Shown: positions 2,874-8,090, numbered from the stretch's first letter. The stretch: DNA of 64,000 nucleotides from a virus (IMGVR_UViG_2519899680_000008:1-64000); one strand, 5' to 3'. Notes: a model not told the origin generated them from the sequence alone. Made by a program: numbers and translations.

Positions 2874-5051
2874 TCAGGATTGAATGAATAAAAGGGAATT
2901 CTTGTAGGTCTGCAAAGTGTTGCAGCCGTTATAGTCGCTGTAACGTATGACTGCCGTGAGAATGACGACCTTGTCCTTGAGCGACTGTACCTCGGCGCGG
3001 TGCTCCATGTACCAGTCATTCCAGCAGACGCATTCCGCCAGCCGGTTGTTCTGGGAAAGCGACAGCTTCGCAAACCGTCTGCTGCCGCCGGTCTCCCGGT
3101 CCTTATAGGTATGTTCCGACACGTCCACGACCGTTGCGCATACGGTTACCCTGCGCCCGTCGTTCTCGTCCTTGGACACCTCCTCCAACGAAAGGTAGGA
3201 AGCCTTTCCCTTGACTTTCTGCCGCGCGTCCGAACTGTCGAAAATCCTCCGGTAGTCGATGGAACCGATACCGGACACGGCTATCTGCTGCTGTGCCCAG
3301 AAGTAATGCCTGCCGCGCATCTCCCCGGGAAAGTCCTTCTCGGAAAGCGTAAACCCGAGCTCCCGTGCGGCACGTTCCAGCAGGGCGTACCTCTGGGTGA
3401 TTGCCCCGACTTTCTCTATCCTGTCGAAACAGCCTGCCAGGATCATGTTCCTCACGTGGCGTGCATTCACCGGCACCTTCACCGCCTCGTCCGGGTTGTC
3501 CGGGTCGTCCCAGTAGCGGTATTTCTTCAGCTTGTACCGGAAGACCCGGTGGATGAAATTCTCGATGCTGTCATAATCTCCGCCCCTTGTCCGCTCCGCG
3601 ACGATATGCTCCACGGTCTTCACACCGACCTGCCTGATACGGGTCAGCGACCAGAATATTTCACCGGCGGCATAGTCGGTGAAGAACTCCGCTCCGGAGC
3701 GGTTGATGTCCGGCGGGACGATCCGGGCCGCGGAACAGCGCTCCATCTCCGACATCAGGGGCGGTATTTCCCTGTCGTCCGCCCATTGCAGCGCCACCGT
3801 ATAGAACGCCGACGGGAAATTCGCCTTGAGCCATGCCCCGCAATAGGCGGTCAGCGCATACGCGGCGGCATGGCTGCGGTTGAACGAGTACTTGCCTGCA
3901 ACCTCAATCTTGTGCCATATCTCCTCGGCTTCGTACTCCGGACACCCGTTCCCGACCGCCCCGGAAATGAAATCCGCTTTGAGCGTGGCCATCAGGTCCG
4001 CCTTTTTCTTGCCTATCGCCTTGCGCAGCAGGTCGGTCTTCCCGAGATCAAAGCCCCCGAGCGTGTGTGCCACGGACATGAACTGCTCCTGGTAGACCAT
4101 GATGCCGAAGGTATTCCTCGTCGCTTCATGGCACCCGTAGTTATAGACCGGGGCTATCTCGCCACGACGGAAGCGAATATAGTTATCCGTCGCCCCGATA
4201 TCCAGCGTGGCGGGGCGGTAAAGGGCGTTGACGGCTATCAGGTCCTCGATATTCTCCGGCTGCACGTCCTGTATGAAACGGGTAATGCCGGGAGACGAGA
4301 ACTGGAAAACGTTCTGCGTGTTGCCCTCGGAGAGCAGACGGTAGGTCTTTTCATCCTCCAGTTTATCCCGCGTGATACATTCGATGGAAAGCCTCTCCCC
4401 GAAATGCTCGTTGGCCAAGGAGATGACCGCGCTGAGTTTGGCGAGTTCCTTGGTCGCGAGCACGTCCTCCTTGAGCAGCCCGATCTCGTCCACTGAATAG
4501 CCGTCGAACTCCGAGACCAACGCGCCGTCCGTCTTGCGGATGGGCAGGTAGTCGAAACATTCCGTCGGCACGCCGTCCCGTGTCTCGGGAGTGACGATGA
4601 TGGCGGAGGCATGGACGGATGCCGACCTGGGCTGTCCCAAAAGCACCCGGACCTCCTCGATGACTTCGGGATACGCCTGTATGAAGTCCCGGAGTCTGCG
4701 GTTTGCCGATGCTGCCATGAAAAGCCCGGTCCAGTCCGTCCCGTCCTCTATCATGGCAGTGACATAGTTCACGGTGGAATGGGGTACGCGGTGTACGCGG
4801 GCGACATCCTTCAGCGCGGCTTTCAGCTTCATCGTGGTGAATGTCCCGGCGGAGAAGACCCGCTGTCGCCCGCCCACGTTGTAGCGTTCCTCCAGATAGT
4901 CCTTGATTTCCTGCCTCCGGTCCGAGGCGTAATCGACATCTATGTCCGGAAGCGATGCATGCCCGCCTTCCGCCAGCCCCCGGTCCACGAAGGAGTCCAT
5001 CACCTTCAGGGGCCGGTCCGTAGTCTTTATCTTTACATGTGTAACTTTCAT
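2874..5051 (-). CDS. dnaE: DNA polymerase III alpha, C-terminal fragment, preceded by a 32-aa intein-C-like leader
   Basis: PDIDVDY catalytic motif, HASAIIV, GLLKEDVL, VFQFSS, YQEQFM, YSFNRSHAAAY, HhH and OB-fold regions. Confidence 0.93.
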   Translation of the reverse strand: MKVTHVKIKTTDRPLKVMDSFVDRGLAEGGHASLPDIDVDYASDRRQEIKDYLEERYNVGGRQRVFSAGTFTTMKLKAALKDVARVHRVPHSTVNYVTAMIEDGTDWTGLFMAASANRRLRDFIQAYPEVIEEVRVLLGQPRSASVHASAIIVTPETRDGVPTECFDYLPIRKTDGALVSEFDGYSVDEIGLLKEDVLATKELAKLSAVISLANEHFGERLSIECITRDKLEDEKTYRLLSEGNTQNVFQFSSPGITRFIQDVQPENIEDLIAVNALYRPATLDIGATDNYIRFRRGEIAPVYNYGCHEATRNTFGIMVYQEQFMSVAHTLGGFDLGKTDLLRKAIGKKKADLMATLKADFISGAVGNGCPEYEAEEIWHKIEVAGKYSFNRSHAAAYALTAYCGAWLKANFPSAFYTVALQWADDREIPPLMSEMERCSAARIVPPDINRSGAEFFTDYAAGEIFWSLTRIRQVGVKTVEHIVAERTRGGDYDSIENFIHRVFRYKLKKYRYWDDPDNPDEAVKVPVNARHVRNMILAGCFDRIEKVGAITQRYALLERAARELGFTLSEKDFPGEMRGRHYFWAQQQIAVSGIGSIDYRRIFDSSDARQKVKGKASYLSLEEVSKDENDGRRVTVCATVVDVSEHTYKDRETGGSRRFAKLSLSQNNRLAECVCWNDWYMEHRAEVQSLKDKVVILTAVIRYSDYNGCNTLQTYKNSLLFIQS

Positions 5052-5590
5052 CTGATGTATTTTTTATGTCGTACAATGGAGCTTACCGTCTGCCGGCAGA
5101 CACCGTATCGCCGTGCAAGCGTCTCCTGGGAGACACCCCCGGCGGCATACCTGATACGTATTTCCTCCGCCTGCGCGTTGCTCAGTTTGGCATTCACGCT
5201 TTTCTCCCCGTAGTCGCGCTTGAGGTCGTTCGCGATGGCGTGTTCCATGTTCCGCTGGCGGGTACACATCTCCAGGTTGGCGGCTTCGTTGTTGCCCTTG
5301 TTCCCGTCGATGTGGTTTACCTCCAAAGCGGGGTCCCAGTCCGGCAGGAAATGGCTGGCGACAAGGCGGTGTACGGAGAATTTCGTCCCGACACCGTTGC
5401 GGTAGAGCCGTACCCGGTCGTAGCAGGAAGTGGTGCCGCACCAGGGCGACATGATGCGTTCGGGCTGCGTATAGGTGATGCCGTCATGCGACACCTTCCT
5501 TTCGAGGCTCTTGACACGCCCCTTGTCGCTGATTTTGTATTTCCCTTCATATCCTTTGATGTCCACCCATGTTTCCAGGGTGTCTGCCAT
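5048..5590 (-). CDS. NUMOD4-HNH homing endonuclease with C-terminal HTH
   Basis: ETWVDIKGYEGKYKISDKGRVKS (NUMOD4); VHRLVA...VNHIDGNKGNN..NLE (HNH); ATGA overlap with dnaE-C. Confidence 0.9.
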   Translation of the reverse strand: MADTLETWVDIKGYEGKYKISDKGRVKSLERKVSHDGITYTQPERIMSPWCGTTSCYDRVRLYRNGVGTKFSVHRLVASHFLPDWDPALEVNHIDGNKGNNEAANLEMCTRQRNMEHAIANDLKRDYGEKSVNAKLSNAQAEEIRIRYAAGGVSQETLARRYGVCRQTVSSIVRHKKYIR

Positions 5591-5593
5591 TGT

Positions 5594-6367
5594 CTATAAT
5601 ACATGGTTGGTTATCCTTTCTCCTGCCGTGCGGAAGATTTCGCGGTCTATCTCTATCCCTATGAAGCGCCGTCCCGTATTCCTGCACGCGATGGCGGTAC
5701 TCCCGCTGCCCATGGCGAAGTCGAGGACGAGGTCCCCTTCATCGGTGTATGTCCTTATCAGGTATTCCAGCAGGGCCACGGGTTTCTGCGTGGCGTGCAG
5801 GCAGGAAAGCTGCTTGTCCGTCTTGAATTTCAGCACGCTGCGCGGATAGCGTTCCGTGGAGATATAGTCCCGGTACTTGTCATGTTTCCGGTAGATTTCC
5901 CCCGCGTCGCATTTGTGCTGGTGTACGGCAAGGATGACCTTCCGCTTGTGCCCGTCGGTCTTGATCGGGTTGTATTTGGGAAGCCTGTCATAGAAGACGA
6001 GGATGTCCTCGTGCGCCTTCATCGGCATGCGTTTCGCGTTCAGGAATCCGGTCGCCTGCGTCTTCTCCCAGACCCAGGCGTAGCGCAGCCTGCCGAGGTT
6101 TGAGCCTCCCAGGACGCTGGTAAACGGCTGCTGGCAGAAAAGCAGCACGGGTGTCTTCTGTCCGGAAACCTCCCGGACGGCCTTCCACATGCGGGGGATA
6201 TCTATCACGGAATCCCACCGGCAGTGCGTCGTCCCGTAAGGCGGGTCGGACAGTACCATGTCGGCAATGATGCCGCTGGCGGCAAGCCGGGGCAGTACCT
6301 CCAGGGCATCTCCCCGGTAAAGGTCGCATCCCTCATAGGGACGCAGGTGTTCGCAGTTCTGATTCAT
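5594..6367 (-). CDS. DNA N6-adenine/N4-cytosine methyltransferase (beta class)
   Basis: DPPY catalytic motif precedes HATQKP and LDFAMGSGST SAM-binding motif; ATG 6367 preferred over TTG 6376. Confidence 0.92.
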   Translation of the reverse strand: MNQNCEHLRPYEGCDLYRGDALEVLPRLAASGIIADMVLSDPPYGTTHCRWDSVIDIPRMWKAVREVSGQKTPVLLFCQQPFTSVLGGSNLGRLRYAWVWEKTQATGFLNAKRMPMKAHEDILVFYDRLPKYNPIKTDGHKRKVILAVHQHKCDAGEIYRKHDKYRDYISTERYPRSVLKFKTDKQLSCLHATQKPVALLEYLIRTYTDEGDLVLDFAMGSGSTAIACRNTGRRFIGIEIDREIFRTAGERITNHVL

Positions 6368-8090
6368 CGGCTTCAAGTTCCTTTAAGTTCCACAGGCAAT
6401 CTCGGCGGTCGAAAAGGATTTCATCGCCACAAATCAATTCATCGGCATATATTGTCTTTTCCGCATCCTTGCGGATTATCCGCAGCCGGGCATCCGGACT
6501 GATGCGGTAGGTCTTGTCCCCGGACTTTATCTCTACATAGCGTTCCCCTTTTTCAAGCAGGAGATCCGGAGCCAGTACCGTCAGCTCGTCTTTCCAGCTC
6601 AGCCCGCAGCGTTCCGGCACAAGGAAACGCGAGAAGATAAGCCCGTATTTCAGCGGGTCGATGGAGGTGATACCGAGCAGGTATGACACCAGGGAGCCTC
6701 CCGCGGAGCCGCGCCCGATGCCGGTGGCAATGCCCCGGCGCCTTGCTTCCCGCACCATGTCCCACTGCACGAGGAAATAGTCCACGTTGTCCGTCGATTC
6801 GATGATATAGACCTCCTCGTCCAGCCGTTCCCCATAGCGTTCCCTTTCCTGTTCCGGGACTTTCTCACGCATTCCCTCATCGAGCAGGCGGAGGAACATC
6901 GTCCGTCGGTTCCCGTACCGTTCCCGTTCCCCGTCCCGCATCCTGTATTCGGGCATGAACATGCGTCCCGTCTCGAAGGCGGCTGTCGCTTTTTCCGCGA
7001 TCTCGACCGTCGGGCGGCACATGCGCCTGAACAGCCTGTCGAAATCCCACTTGTCGGAAAACAGGGGGCGTAACGTCTCGTAATGCTCGTCCACGCTCTT
7101 GTAGTACTGGTCATCGCTCTGCTCGTGCGCCGCCCCCGAAGCTATCTTGTTCAGGACGGTCTTCGAGAAGGCATCGTCCTTGTCCGGGTAATGGCAGTCC
7201 GCAATGAGAATGGGAGCCACGGGAAAAGAATCCGTCCGGTCGTCATGGCTTTCGAAATAGTACCGGAGGGCTTCGAGGTTTTCCCGGTCTATACGGTCGG
7301 CCTTGTACTCGCAGGCATCCACCTGGTAATAGACCGCCTCGAAACCCTGCCGCAGCCGTGCGACCTGCCGGGGATGGGAGAGCATCCAGTAGGAGGAACG
7401 GGTGGAGAAGATCAACACGCATCCGGCGGCATACGCCAGCAGCTGCTCATATCGGAGCGTCCTGTCCTCCGAGCCCACCATGACGGCACGCTGTATGCGG
7501 AGCAGGTTGCGGAGACCGTCATTGCCGAGGGCATAGACTTTCAACCCGACTTTCCCGTCCGGGTGTGCCATGTCGAGGGAATACCCGAACACGTGCTTCA
7601 GTCCCGCCTTGGCGCATTCCTTCTGGAAGTTGAGCGTGGCGGCCATCGTGTTGCGGTCGCAGATACCGATGGCCGTGTGTCCCAGCCACCGGGCCTTGCG
7701 GCACCACTCTTCCAGAGCCCCGGAAGCGTTCAGCAGCTCGTACGGGGTATGGATGCCGAGGTTTACGAAAGGGATGTCGTGCACGGGAGGTTTCGGACGT
7801 CCGATATGTTTCAGGATATTGAACCTGAAATCCTCCCGCAGGTCGTAGTAGTACCAGTTCTTTCCGAAGGGGAATGCCACATGGCGGATACCTTCTTCCA
7901 GCAGTACCTCCGGGGTTTCCATCAGGTTGAACACGGGCCTGCCGCCTTCATTCCTGAAAACGGAGTCCACGCCGGAGAGGTCGGCCAGGAACAGCCGTCC
8001 GAATTCCGGGATGTCCACTACCTCCGTGTCCACGGGCATATATGAAATGGACTGGCTGTCGAGCCAGGCCAGCAGTTCGTTCATCATCAT
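6333..8090 (-). CDS. dnaE: DNA polymerase III alpha, N-terminal fragment (PHP + part of palm), ending in a 91-aa intein-N-like tail
   Basis: PHP motifs, DYFLVQWD, GRGSAGGSLVSYLLGIT, IDPLKYGLIFSRFLVPER, then CGLSW... Confidence 0.92.
   Translation of the reverse strand: MMMNELLAWLDSQSISYMPVDTEVVDIPEFGRLFLADLSGVDSVFRNEGGRPVFNLMETPEVLLEEGIRHVAFPFGKNWYYYDLREDFRFNILKHIGRPKPPVHDIPFVNLGIHTPYELLNASGALEEWCRKARWLGHTAIGICDRNTMAATLNFQKECAKAGLKHVFGYSLDMAHPDGKVGLKVYALGNDGLRNLLRIQRAVMVGSEDRTLRYEQLLAYAAGCVLIFSTRSSYWMLSHPRQVARLRQGFEAVYYQVDACEYKADRIDRENLEALRYYFESHDDRTDSFPVAPILIADCHYPDKDDAFSKTVLNKIASGAAHEQSDDQYYKSVDEHYETLRPLFSDKWDFDRLFRRMCRPTVEIAEKATAAFETGRMFMPEYRMRDGERERYGNRRTMFLRLLDEGMREKVPEQERERYGERLDEEVYIIESTDNVDYFLVQWDMVREARRRGIATGIGRGSAGGSLVSYLLGITSIDPLKYGLIFSRFLVPERCGLSWKDELTVLAPDLLLEKGERYVEIKSGDKTYRISPDARLRIIRKDAEKTIYADELICGDEILFDRRDCLWNLKELEADESELRTPASL

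What the first reader, a model, noticed from the sequence alone, without database searches (positions are those of the whole stretch)
4953..6608. Fractured dnaE joined by a degenerate (probably non-splicing) split-intein-like pair
Seen: DnaE-N stops matching the family exactly at ...FSRFLVPER and continues with a 91-aa tail starting with Cys (CGLSW...YVEIKSGDKTYRISPDARLRIIR...IYADELICGDEIL). DnaE-C starts with a 32-aa leader (MKVTHVKIKTTDRPLKVMDSFVDRGLAEGGHA) before SLPDIDVDY. In intact DnaE these two motifs are adjacent (FLNPERxSxPDxDxD). Known: split inteins flanking a free-standing homing endonuclease form 'fractured gene' loci in phages, and canonical splicing needs the block B TxxH and a terminal Asn/Gln. 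Inference: both tails look HINT-like, but block B reads SPDA and the C-terminus reads GGH-A-S instead of H-N-S. This could be a catalytically dead split intein domesticated as a non-covalent zipper that assembles a two-chain polymerase next to its active site, or an intein with new chemistry.
Basis: partly seen in the sequence, partly recalled or inferred. Interest (0 to 1): 0.88.

Follow-up and report, generated by a model that had tools for sequence, protein, structure and literature searches.

The report
Degenerate split intein in prophage dnaE
A gut-Bacteroidales prophage encodes its replicative DNA polymerase as two proteins, broken next to the active site, whose ends are the remains of a split intein that has lost the residues needed to splice and so probably only holds the halves together.

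Summary
On the minus strand, DnaE-N (6333-8090) stops matching Pol III alpha at R494 and carries a 91-aa tail. DnaE-C (2874-5051) starts with a 31-32-aa leader. The Pfam model breaks exactly at positions 98/99.

The tail is intein-derived. Its profile hits intein block B in the PDB, and two AlphaFold models of it match almost only intein/Hedgehog (HINT) folds: 25 of 28 and 25 of 29 chains, Z up to 5.3.

The splicing residues are missing. Block B reads S..A instead of T..H. No family member has a terminal Asn. The junction varies (AS, SA, AA), so there is no conserved +1 nucleophile. Cys1 is Ala or Gly in sister lineages. Canonical inteins elsewhere in relatives' dnaE keep every catalytic residue.

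The split is fixed across hundreds of protein clusters and no fused form was found. Tail core and leader are under purifying selection (dN/dS about 0.22-0.24). The methyltransferase and HNH genes between the halves are optional cargo.

Best reading: a dead split intein kept as a non-covalent assembly module.

The scan has not noted this on other DNA.

Some relatives also carry a 7- or 9-nt stop-containing coding gap inside the catalytic PD codons.

The parts
6609..8090 (-). DnaE-N polymerase part (residues 1-494): PHP domain plus the first third of the Pol III alpha palm, ending ...FSRFLVPER
   Evidence: Pfam PHP and DNA_pol3_alpha model positions 4-98. dN/dS of the last 95 codons is 0.07.
6378..6608 (-). 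Tail core (tail residues 1-77, DnaE-N 495-571): remnant of a split-intein N fragment, CGL.W ... DA.LR ... YADEL..GD.ILFDRRD.LW.L.E
   Evidence: Profile hits to intein block B. HINT-only fold matches. dN/dS 0.22. Conserved in at least 218 clusters. Net charge averages -5.5.
6489..6500 (-). Block B equivalent S37-P38-D39-A40 of the tail, where canonical inteins have T-x-x-H
   Evidence: HMMER alignments place intein TADH, TRSH and TSGH over this stretch. Ala40 is nearly invariant; position 37 is variable.
6333..6377 (-). Tail end (tail residues 78-91) plus stop codon: a variable, neutrally evolving extension that overlaps the methyltransferase start
   Evidence: dN/dS about 1.0. Absent from cargo-free relatives, whose tails are 76-82 aa. 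Methyltransferase ATG at 6367.
5594..6367 (-). N6/N4 DNA methyltransferase, optional cargo between the halves
   Evidence: Pfam N6_N4_Mtase, E 6e-27. Present in some related loci and absent in others.
5048..5590 (-). Free-standing NUMOD4 + HNH_3 + HTH homing-type endonuclease, optional cargo; its stop overlaps the DnaE-C start (ATGA)
   Evidence: Pfam. Presence/absence polymorphism in relatives. Sequence read directly.
4959..5051 (-). Leader (DnaE-C residues 1-31, MKVTH...AEGGH): presumed remnant of a split-intein C fragment, with a block F-like V.D.FV and a penultimate-His-like GGH
   Evidence: Conserved across 29 loci. dN/dS 0.24. Residues 1-16 average +3.3 charge. HINT ancestry rests on pattern only (one search gave no hit).
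4953..4958 (-). Junction residues Ala32-Ser33, where a canonical intein would have Asn | Cys/Ser/Thr
   Evidence: Family variants are AS, SA and AA, never Asn. The Pfam polymerase model resumes at Ala32.
2874..4952 (-). DnaE-C polymerase part: rest of the palm with the catalytic LPDIDVDY (P35-D40 at 4932-4949), fingers and HhH domain
   Evidence: Pfam DNA_pol3_alpha positions 99-260, DNA_pol3_finger and HHH_6. dN/dS 0.07.

Best explanation
This is a prophage replicative polymerase (Pol III alpha type) made as two polypeptides from one operon. The break lies between R494 and A32/S33, two to three residues before the catalytic PDIDVD motif.

Both broken ends carry what remains of a split intein. 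There is a roughly 77-aa acidic N fragment on DnaE-N and a 31-aa C fragment, basic in its first half, on DnaE-C. The pair has lost the block B Thr and His, the terminal Asn and a fixed +1 nucleophile. It is also about 30 aa shorter than a mini-intein, so it cannot carry out canonical protein splicing.

The most likely mechanism is that the two fragments still fold together as split-intein halves do. That would dock the two parts of the palm domain non-covalently, giving a two-chain polymerase with a small HINT-like knob beside the active site. The methyltransferase and the HNH endonuclease are mobile cargo that sits in the gap and comes and goes.

Shown: the anatomy, the HINT ancestry of the tail, the loss of catalytic residues, the selection on both pieces, and the variability of the cargo. 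Inferred: the physical pairing, the absence of splicing, and the requirement of the tails for activity.
For: - Exact break: the Pfam model is cut at positions 98/99.
- HINT ancestry of the tail: intein hits over block B (E 0.011-0.49; four of the top seven). VIA-align against 48,161 chains gives 25 of 28 hits (Z up to 4.5) and, with a deeper alignment, 25 of 29 hits (best: Pyrococcus horikoshii PolII mini-intein, Z 5.3, rmsd 2.1 A over 52 residues) as inteins, Hedgehog or BIL. Eight of the Foldseek top ten are inteins.
- Dead catalytic set: the tail has S..A where inteins have T..H. C-side junctions are GGHAS, GGYAS, GSHAS, GGHAA, GSHAA, GGHSA, GAGAA, TEAGS and GGRIS. Residue 1 is Cys in 123 clusters, Ala in 8 and Gly in 3.
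- Internal control: canonical inteins in the same gene of relatives keep C1, T.DH and VHN|C/S (L048/49, L066, L035, L064).
- The pieces are functional: dN/dS is 0.22 for the tail core and 0.24 for the leader, against 0.07 for the polymerase and about 1 for the tail end.
- The split is fixed: it persists with no cargo (overlapping stop and start), with methyltransferase only, HNH only, both, two HNH genes, a PIF1-type helicase, or small ORFs. No fused form appears among 1.84 billion representatives.
- Charge complementarity resembles natural split inteins (the comparison rests on general knowledge of split inteins).
- Precedent: tails created by a homing-endonuclease insertion are essential for the split NrdA of phage Aeh1 (PMC3045599).
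Against: - Binding was not tested.
- Cys1 is invariant in the window's own clade (123 of 123 clusters) although the tail otherwise varies. That hints at a role beyond packing.
- The leader's homology to intein C fragments is not statistically supported.
- The GGH[AS][SA] end of the leader is encoded by a palindromic hairpin (GGNGGN-CAY-NCCNCC) with compensatory changes. Part of its conservation may therefore act at the nucleic-acid level.
- In the Aeh1 NrdA case the tails were not needed for heterodimer formation itself (section heading in PMC3045599), so 'zipper' may be too simple.
- Fold-match Z scores are modest (5.3 or less) because only half a domain could be modelled.
- dS is near saturation (about 1.4), so the dN/dS values are approximate.
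Confidence: 0.65

Rival explanations
1. The tails are evolutionary leftovers of a former intein. The two halves assemble through the polymerase's own palm-domain interface, and the tails contribute little or act only at a later step such as higher-order assembly.
For: One lineage has much reduced pieces (L068: 59-aa tail without Cys, roughly 17-aa leader), which suggests erosion. In Aeh1 NrdA the tails were not required for heterodimer formation (PMC3045599, section heading). Catalytic positions drift freely.
Against: Both pieces are under purifying selection (dN/dS 0.22-0.24, against about 1 for the tail end). They are retained in every lineage down to about 30-40% identity, including cargo-free ones. 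No lineage has lost them or re-fused the gene.
Confidence: 0.17
2. The pair is still an active trans-splicing intein, or does some other covalent chemistry such as a Cys1 thioester used for N-cleavage or an unconventional ligation.
For: Cys1 is invariant in 123 clusters of the window's clade. The block F-like Asp19 and His31 are at least 90% conserved. Ser33 could serve as a +1 nucleophile in the window itself.
Against: No family member has Asn, Gln or Asp at the last position. The AA junctions in L017, L037/42/43/52 and L058 leave no nucleophile. The block B His is Ala or Ser. Cys1 is Ala or Gly in sister lineages that keep the same split. Canonical inteins in the same gene family keep all of these residues.
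Confidence: 0.07
3. The halves are joined at the RNA level (a group I or II intron carrying the endonuclease), or by ribosomal read-through into one chain.
For: An endonuclease gene inside a conserved gene is typical of introns.
Against: Tail and leader are conserved as protein. In cargo-free relatives the stop and the start overlap in different frames with no intervening RNA. No Rfam family matches 4800-6800 at E up to 1. The cargo varies while the ends stay the same.
Confidence: 0.01
4. The split dnaE is a decaying pseudogene and the prophage relies on the host polymerase.
For: The host has its own intact dnaE (contig C11).
Against: Both polymerase parts are under strong purifying selection (dN/dS 0.07) and intact in hundreds of clusters. 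A second related prophage in the same genome keeps the same layout.
Confidence: 0.02

Closest known systems
Fractured genes: split inteins flanking a free-standing homing endonuclease gene (Dassa et al. 2009, PMC2677866; includes three DnaE loci)
   Same: The two halves of a replication gene lie adjacent on one strand. Intein-type fragments sit on the broken ends. A free-standing endonuclease gene lies between them, in a phage-like context.
   Different: The published split inteins keep all five catalytic residues (Cys1, Thr, His, Asn, Cys+1), according to that paper. Here the Thr, His and Asn are gone and the +1 residue is not fixed. The HINT domain is about 30 aa shorter. The endonuclease is optional and travels with a methyltransferase. 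Whether the insertion point matches any of the three published DnaE sites was not checked.
Cyanobacterial DnaE split intein (Ssp/Npu DnaE)
   Same: Pol III alpha is encoded as two genes whose ends are intein halves, an acidic N fragment and a basic C fragment. The split is fixed in a whole clade.
   Different: The cyanobacterial pair splices efficiently, sits at a different site (before the CFNKSH-type motif, roughly at residue 393 of this DnaE-C; recalled from memory, not tested here), and its genes lie at separate loci. Here the genes are adjacent and the pair lacks the splicing residues.
Phage Aeh1 NrdA-a/NrdA-b split by mobE (Crona et al. 2011, PMC3045599)
   Same: An essential enzyme is fragmented by a homing endonuclease. 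[quoted passage not shown] This is the closest functional model for the present locus.
   Different: The Aeh1 tails are unique sequences that arose during the insertion. Here the tail is recognisably a HINT (intein) remnant, and the split predates and outlives the cargo.
T4 topoisomerase genes 39 and 60 split by the mobA element with a 50-nt bypassed coding gap (Manning and Atkins 2022, bioRxiv 10.1101/2022.08.31.505936)
   Same: In relatives of this locus (not in the window) the downstream half carries a short stop-initiated coding gap about 35 codons in. A hairpin sits at the take-off codon, next to a homing endonuclease gene.
   Different: The gap is 7 or 9 nt rather than 50 nt and sits inside the catalytic PD codons of a polymerase. 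Bypass is inferred, not shown.
Bacterial intein-like (BIL) and Hedgehog HINT domains
   Same: HINT fold with non-canonical termini. Both appear among the fold matches (1at0, 2lwy).
   Different: Those domains are contiguous and still carry out cleavage or transfer chemistry. They are not split and not inserted at an enzyme's active site.

Membership tests
Intein (protein-splicing HINT domain) | HINT fold | tested here: met
   N tail only. 25 of 28 and 25 of 29 chains with Z of at least 2, out of 48,161, are inteins, Hedgehog or BIL (best Z 5.3, rmsd 2.1 A, 52 residues). Profile hits to intein block B. Z values are modest because only half a domain is modelled. The leader could not be tested.
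Intein (protein-splicing HINT domain) | Block A nucleophile (Cys/Ser/Thr at position 1) | tested here: met
   Cys495 in the window and in 123 clusters. Ala (8 clusters) or Gly (3 clusters) in sister lineages with the same split.
Intein (protein-splicing HINT domain) | Block B Thr-x-x-His | tested here: not met
   The window reads S-P-D-A. The His position is Ala (nearly invariant) or Ser, and the Thr position is variable.
Intein (protein-splicing HINT domain) | C-terminal Asn (rarely Gln or Asp) after a penultimate His | tested here: not met
   GGH is followed by Ala or Ser. Asn, Gln and Asp are absent from all loci examined. His is itself replaced by Tyr, Gly or Arg in some.
Intein (protein-splicing HINT domain) | Cys/Ser/Thr as the first C-extein residue | tested here: not met
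   The window has Ser33 if the boundary is A32|S33. The family, however, shows AS, SA and AA; the AA lineages have no nucleophile. By the Pfam model the extein starts at Ala32.
Intein (protein-splicing HINT domain) | Excision with ligation of the flanks | not testable with these tools
   Needs co-expression and mass analysis.
Fractured gene (Dassa et al. 2009) | Adjacent gene halves on one strand with a free-standing homing endonuclease gene between them | tested here: met
   DnaE-N, methyltransferase, NUMOD4-HNH, DnaE-C, all on the minus strand.
Fractured gene (Dassa et al. 2009) | Split-intein halves with the complete catalytic set | tested here: not met
   See the intein rows above. The paper states that its inteins keep Cys1, Thr, His, Asn and Cys+1.
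Gene fragmented by a homing endonuclease and reassembled by tail interaction domains (Aeh1 NrdA type) | Tails on the fragments that are required for activity without splicing | not testable with these tools
   Supported indirectly by purifying selection on both tails. No binding or activity test was possible.

The most novel reading that the evidence does not exclude
In the window's clade the remnant is not entirely dead. The strictly conserved Cys495, together with the block F-like Asp19 and His31 of the leader, may still perform chemistry at the Arg494-Cys495 bond. One possibility is a thioester used for regulated self-cleavage. Another is a ligation that needs neither a terminal Asn nor a +1 nucleophile. 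Either would couple assembly of the polymerase active site to a covalent step.
Probability: 0.07. Interest if true: 0.9.

Novelty: new variant of a known kind. Interest (0 to 1): 0.66.

Why it matters
Split inteins are known as splicing machines. Tails created by mobile-element insertions are known to rescue one fragmented enzyme (Aeh1 NrdA). This locus joins the two ideas: a natural split intein that has lost its chemistry yet has been kept under selection as part of a two-chain replicative polymerase.

The family is very common in human-gut Bacteroidales prophages. One DnaE-C cluster, named from Phocaeicola vulgatus, was seen on 910 contigs.

If confirmed, it would be a natural example of intein exaptation. 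It would show what can happen to a split intein after catalytic decay. It would also offer a compact (77 + 31 aa), non-reactive heterodimerisation pair. The locus is directly testable by co-expression.

The related loci add a second open question: how a polymerase gene with a 7- or 9-nt stop-containing gap inside its catalytic codons is decoded.

Tried and rejected
- Single-sequence searches of tail and leader against Pfam: no family at E up to 10. The tail against PDB sequences gave only a chance ribosomal L21 match.
- Leader-only profile against the PDB: no hit at E up to 10, as the profile has only 31 positions.
- hhalign of the tail profile against one canonical mini-intein from L048: not significant (probability 0.3). 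It did align the expected segment after block B.
- ESM Atlas feature search of the tail: only a weak intein lead (score 0.77, rank 6), treated as a lead only.
- Tail profile against 1.84 billion representatives: 42 hits. Nearly all are split DnaE-N proteins or fragments, plus a few repeat proteins and a PolB fragment. No fused dnaE and no canonical intein below E 1e-3, so no sequence bridge to active inteins was found that way.
- Group I/II intron or other RNA: Rfam found nothing. No minus-strand terminator-like site between the halves (the scan is sigma-70 based, so it is weak evidence for Bacteroidales).
- Covariation between Cys1 and His31 across lineages: not consistent (L084 has Cys1 with Arg; L058 and L083 have Ala1 without His), so no conclusion.
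- Papers: no report of this family, or of a naturally dead split intein, in the library searched.
Full report
**Anatomy**

All genes lie on the minus strand and are tightly packed.
- DnaE-N: 6333-8090, 585 aa.
- An N6/N4 DNA methyltransferase: ATG at 6367, ending at 5594.
- A NUMOD4-HNH-HTH endonuclease: 5048-5590.
- DnaE-C: 2874-5051, 725 aa.

The HNH stop overlaps the DnaE-C start (ATGA). The methyltransferase start overlaps the end of DnaE-N. No minus-strand terminator-like site lies between the halves.

Pfam DNA_pol3_alpha matches model positions 4-98 in DnaE-N, ending at R494. It matches positions 99-260 in DnaE-C, starting at A32. The polymerase is therefore cut at one precise point, two to three residues before the catalytic LPDIDVDY.

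What is left over is a 91-aa tail starting with Cys495 (6336-6608) and a 31-aa leader ending in GGH (4959-5051). Intact distant phage DnaEs read straight through this point (L062-L079). The one refinement is that the polymerase sequence probably resumes at A32 rather than S33.

**Is it a family?**

Yes. At least 218 clusters at 90% identity carry the tail, all about 570-590 aa. The hosts named are Alistipes, Duncaniella and Dysgonomonas. Among the DnaE-C relatives found are clusters named from Phocaeicola vulgatus (seen on 910 contigs), Bacteroides and Parabacteroides.

Sixty-two of the 79 viral loci fetched show the same split: the 57-78% identity group, plus L058 and L068. More distant lineages at 30-45% identity are also split at the same point. 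A profile search of 1.84 billion representatives found no fused version.

The window's own genome is a 4.9-Mb bacterium. It has an intact host dnaE and a second prophage with the same four-gene layout.

**What lies between the halves varies**

The gap holds, in different relatives:
- methyltransferase plus HNH, as in the window;
- methyltransferase only;
- HNH only;
- a second HNH in addition;
- a PIF1-type helicase;
- two small ORFs;
- nothing at all.

In the empty case the DnaE-N stop and the DnaE-C start overlap in different frames. The split and its two end pieces are therefore independent of the cargo. This excludes an intron and marks the methyltransferase and endonuclease as mobile passengers. 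Rfam finds no RNA family in the region.

**Is the tail intein-like?**

Single-sequence searches were blank. A profile of 25 tails searched against PDB sequences returned inteins as four of the top seven hits:
- Aes123 PolB1 split intein, E 0.011;
- TFIIB mini-intein, E 0.021;
- PI-PkoII, E 0.14;
- KlbA, E 0.49.

All are aligned over block B and the following hairpin. The intein TADH, TRSH and TSGH lie over the tail's S37-P38-D39-A40.

AlphaFold models of the tail alone have a moderately confident beta core and disordered ends (pLDDT 56, and 65 with a 110-sequence alignment). That is what one expects of half a domain. An exhaustive structural comparison with 48,161 PDB representatives gave 28 and 29 chains with Z of at least 2. 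In each run, 25 of them are inteins, Hedgehog or BIL HINT domains. The best match is the Pyrococcus horikoshii PolII mini-intein (Z 5.3, rmsd 2.1 A over 52 residues). Foldseek ranks inteins in eight of its top ten, without significant E-values.

Each score is modest, but the enrichment is overwhelming and comes from both sequence and fold. The leader is too short for such tests. Its V.D.FV pattern resembles block F and its GGH resembles the penultimate His. That resemblance is inference only.

**Can it splice?**

The comparative evidence says no.
- The block B His is Ala in nearly all members and Ser in L058. The Thr position is free to vary.
- No member has Asn, Gln or Asp at the last position.
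- The junction reads GGHAS, GGYAS, GSHAS, GGHAA, GSHAA, GGHSA, GAGAA, TEAGS or GGRIS. Several lineages therefore lack any +1 nucleophile.
- Residue 1 is Cys in 123 clusters but Ala in 8 and Gly in 3, all with the same split.
- Tail core plus leader total about 108 aa, roughly 30 aa fewer than the 139-aa mini-intein of L048.

That mini-intein is part of an internal control. Relatives carry canonical inteins at two other sites of DnaE-C (L048/49 and L066 at GIM|CYQEQ; L035 and L064 at LRK|C/S-IGKKK). These keep Cys1, T.DH and VHN followed by Cys or Ser. Active inteins in this gene family look canonical. The pair at the split does not.

**Are the pieces functional?**

Pairwise dN/dS over 34 distinct loci:
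- polymerase flanks: 0.07;
- tail core: 0.22;
- leader: 0.24;
- last 14 tail residues: about 1.0.

Those last 14 residues overlap the methyltransferase start and are missing where there is no cargo. dS is near saturation, so the values are rough, but the contrast is clear.

The tail core is acidic (mean -5.5) and the first half of the leader is basic (mean +3.3). Natural split-intein halves show the same pattern (general knowledge).

**Mechanism proposed**

The two chains are translated from one operon. The HINT-derived fragments pair as split-intein halves do and dock the two parts of the palm. No peptide bond is formed.

The precedent for splicing-free rescue of a fragmented enzyme by terminal tails is the mobE-split NrdA of phage Aeh1 (PMC3045599). 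The precedent for the gene layout is the fractured genes with canonical split inteins (PMC2677866).

Weak points:
- Cys495 is strictly conserved in the window's clade.
- The GGH[AS][SA] end of the leader is encoded by a palindromic hairpin with compensatory changes, so part of its conservation may be at the nucleic-acid level.

I put the dead-intein assembly module at 0.65, vestigial tails at 0.17, residual or new chemistry at 0.07, and RNA-level joining or a pseudogene at 0.03 together.

**Novelty**

I found no report of this family or of a naturally dead split intein in the library searched. I rate it a new variant of a known kind.

**Side observation in relatives, not in the window**

Eighteen viral contigs carry a 7-nt insertion exactly between the Pro and Asp codons of LPDIDVDY.
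- It starts with TAA or TGA.
- It shifts the frame.
- It ends in NCG, close to the preceding CCG.
- It follows a 10-bp hairpin with compensatory changes.

A distant lineage (L080) has a 9-nt in-frame insertion with two stop codons at the same spot. The genes are otherwise intact. L038 has no start codon in the body frame.

This looks like programmed bypass or frameshifting. It resembles the mobA/gene 60 arrangement of T4 (bioRxiv 10.1101/2022.08.31.505936). Every locus with a complete DnaE-C that has the second HNH gene also carries the gap.

Noticed in passing
Related loci L009, L012, L015, L019, L021, L026, L028, L035, L038-L040, L054, L055, L059, L094, L099-L101 (e.g. L009:9630-9680). Not in the window.: A 7-nt insertion (TAAGGCG, TGAGCCG, TGAGACG, TAACTCG or TGAATCG) sits exactly between the Pro (CCG) and Asp codons of the catalytic LPDIDVDY of DnaE-C. 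It begins with a stop codon, shifts the frame, and ends in NCG. A 10-bp hairpin with compensatory changes precedes it. The gene is otherwise intact, and L038 has no start codon in the body frame. This is a candidate programmed 7-nt bypass or +1 frameshift. Eighteen IMG/VR contigs match the pattern.
   Followed up: partly
L080:2990-3040 (distant split-dnaE lineage, tail starting GGL): A 9-nt in-frame insertion, TAG TGA CTT (two stop codons), sits at the same Pro|Asp position (HGSLP**LDVDVDF). A 10-bp stem ends at the take-off codon. The gene caller started DnaE-C downstream of the catalytic motif. This looks like a second, independent case of a coding gap at this spot.
   Followed up: partly
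Window 4953-4980 (weak) and related loci such as L048, L018 and L009 (strong): The leader end GGH+SA or GGH+AS is encoded by a palindrome, GGNGGN-CAY-NCCNCC. The SA and AS variants are translations of compensatory changes in a hairpin (folding energy down to -21 kcal/mol in relatives, about -10 in the window). Its role is unknown. It could be a recoding signal, a regulatory element or an endonuclease target.
   Followed up: partly
L048:8682-9098, L049:8682-9098, L066:9977-11080, L035:9336-10547, L064:8356-9543: Canonical inteins occur inside DnaE-C of relatives at two other sites. There is a 139-aa mini-intein, and there are 368-404-aa forms with LAGLIDADG-type motifs. All keep Cys1, T.DH and VHN followed by Cys or Ser. 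The window has none of them.
   Followed up: partly
Own genome, contig C1 (L102:1247-6446): A second, related prophage in the same bacterial genome carries the same DnaE-N | methyltransferase | HNH | DnaE-C layout, with a tail about 80% identical. The host's own intact dnaE is on contig C11.
   Followed up: partly
L083:5740-7035; L058:7760-8345; L009-type loci: Other cargo is found in the same gap: a PIF1-type helicase (L083), two small unrelated ORFs (L058), and a second HNH endonuclease about 50% identical to the first. Among loci with a complete DnaE-C, the second HNH occurs only together with the 7-nt gap. This suggests the gap protects the target site.
   Followed up: partly
P0284 (167-aa fragment from the representative search): A family B polymerase fragment ends its YIDTDS motif and continues with a Ser-initiated, intein-like N fragment (SLAGDSLI...). 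It matches the tail profile at E 9.5e-4 and also seems to lack a block B His. This may be a PolB counterpart.
   Followed up: no
L068:7249-7500: A DnaE lineage about 31% identical to the window's is split at the same point. Its tail is 59 aa with no Cys, and its leader is only about 17 aa. This may be a more eroded state of the same module.
   Followed up: no
Window 6333-6377: The last 14 residues of the DnaE-N tail evolve neutrally and overlap the methyltransferase start. They appear to be read-through into the inserted cassette rather than part of the functional tail.
   Followed up: yes
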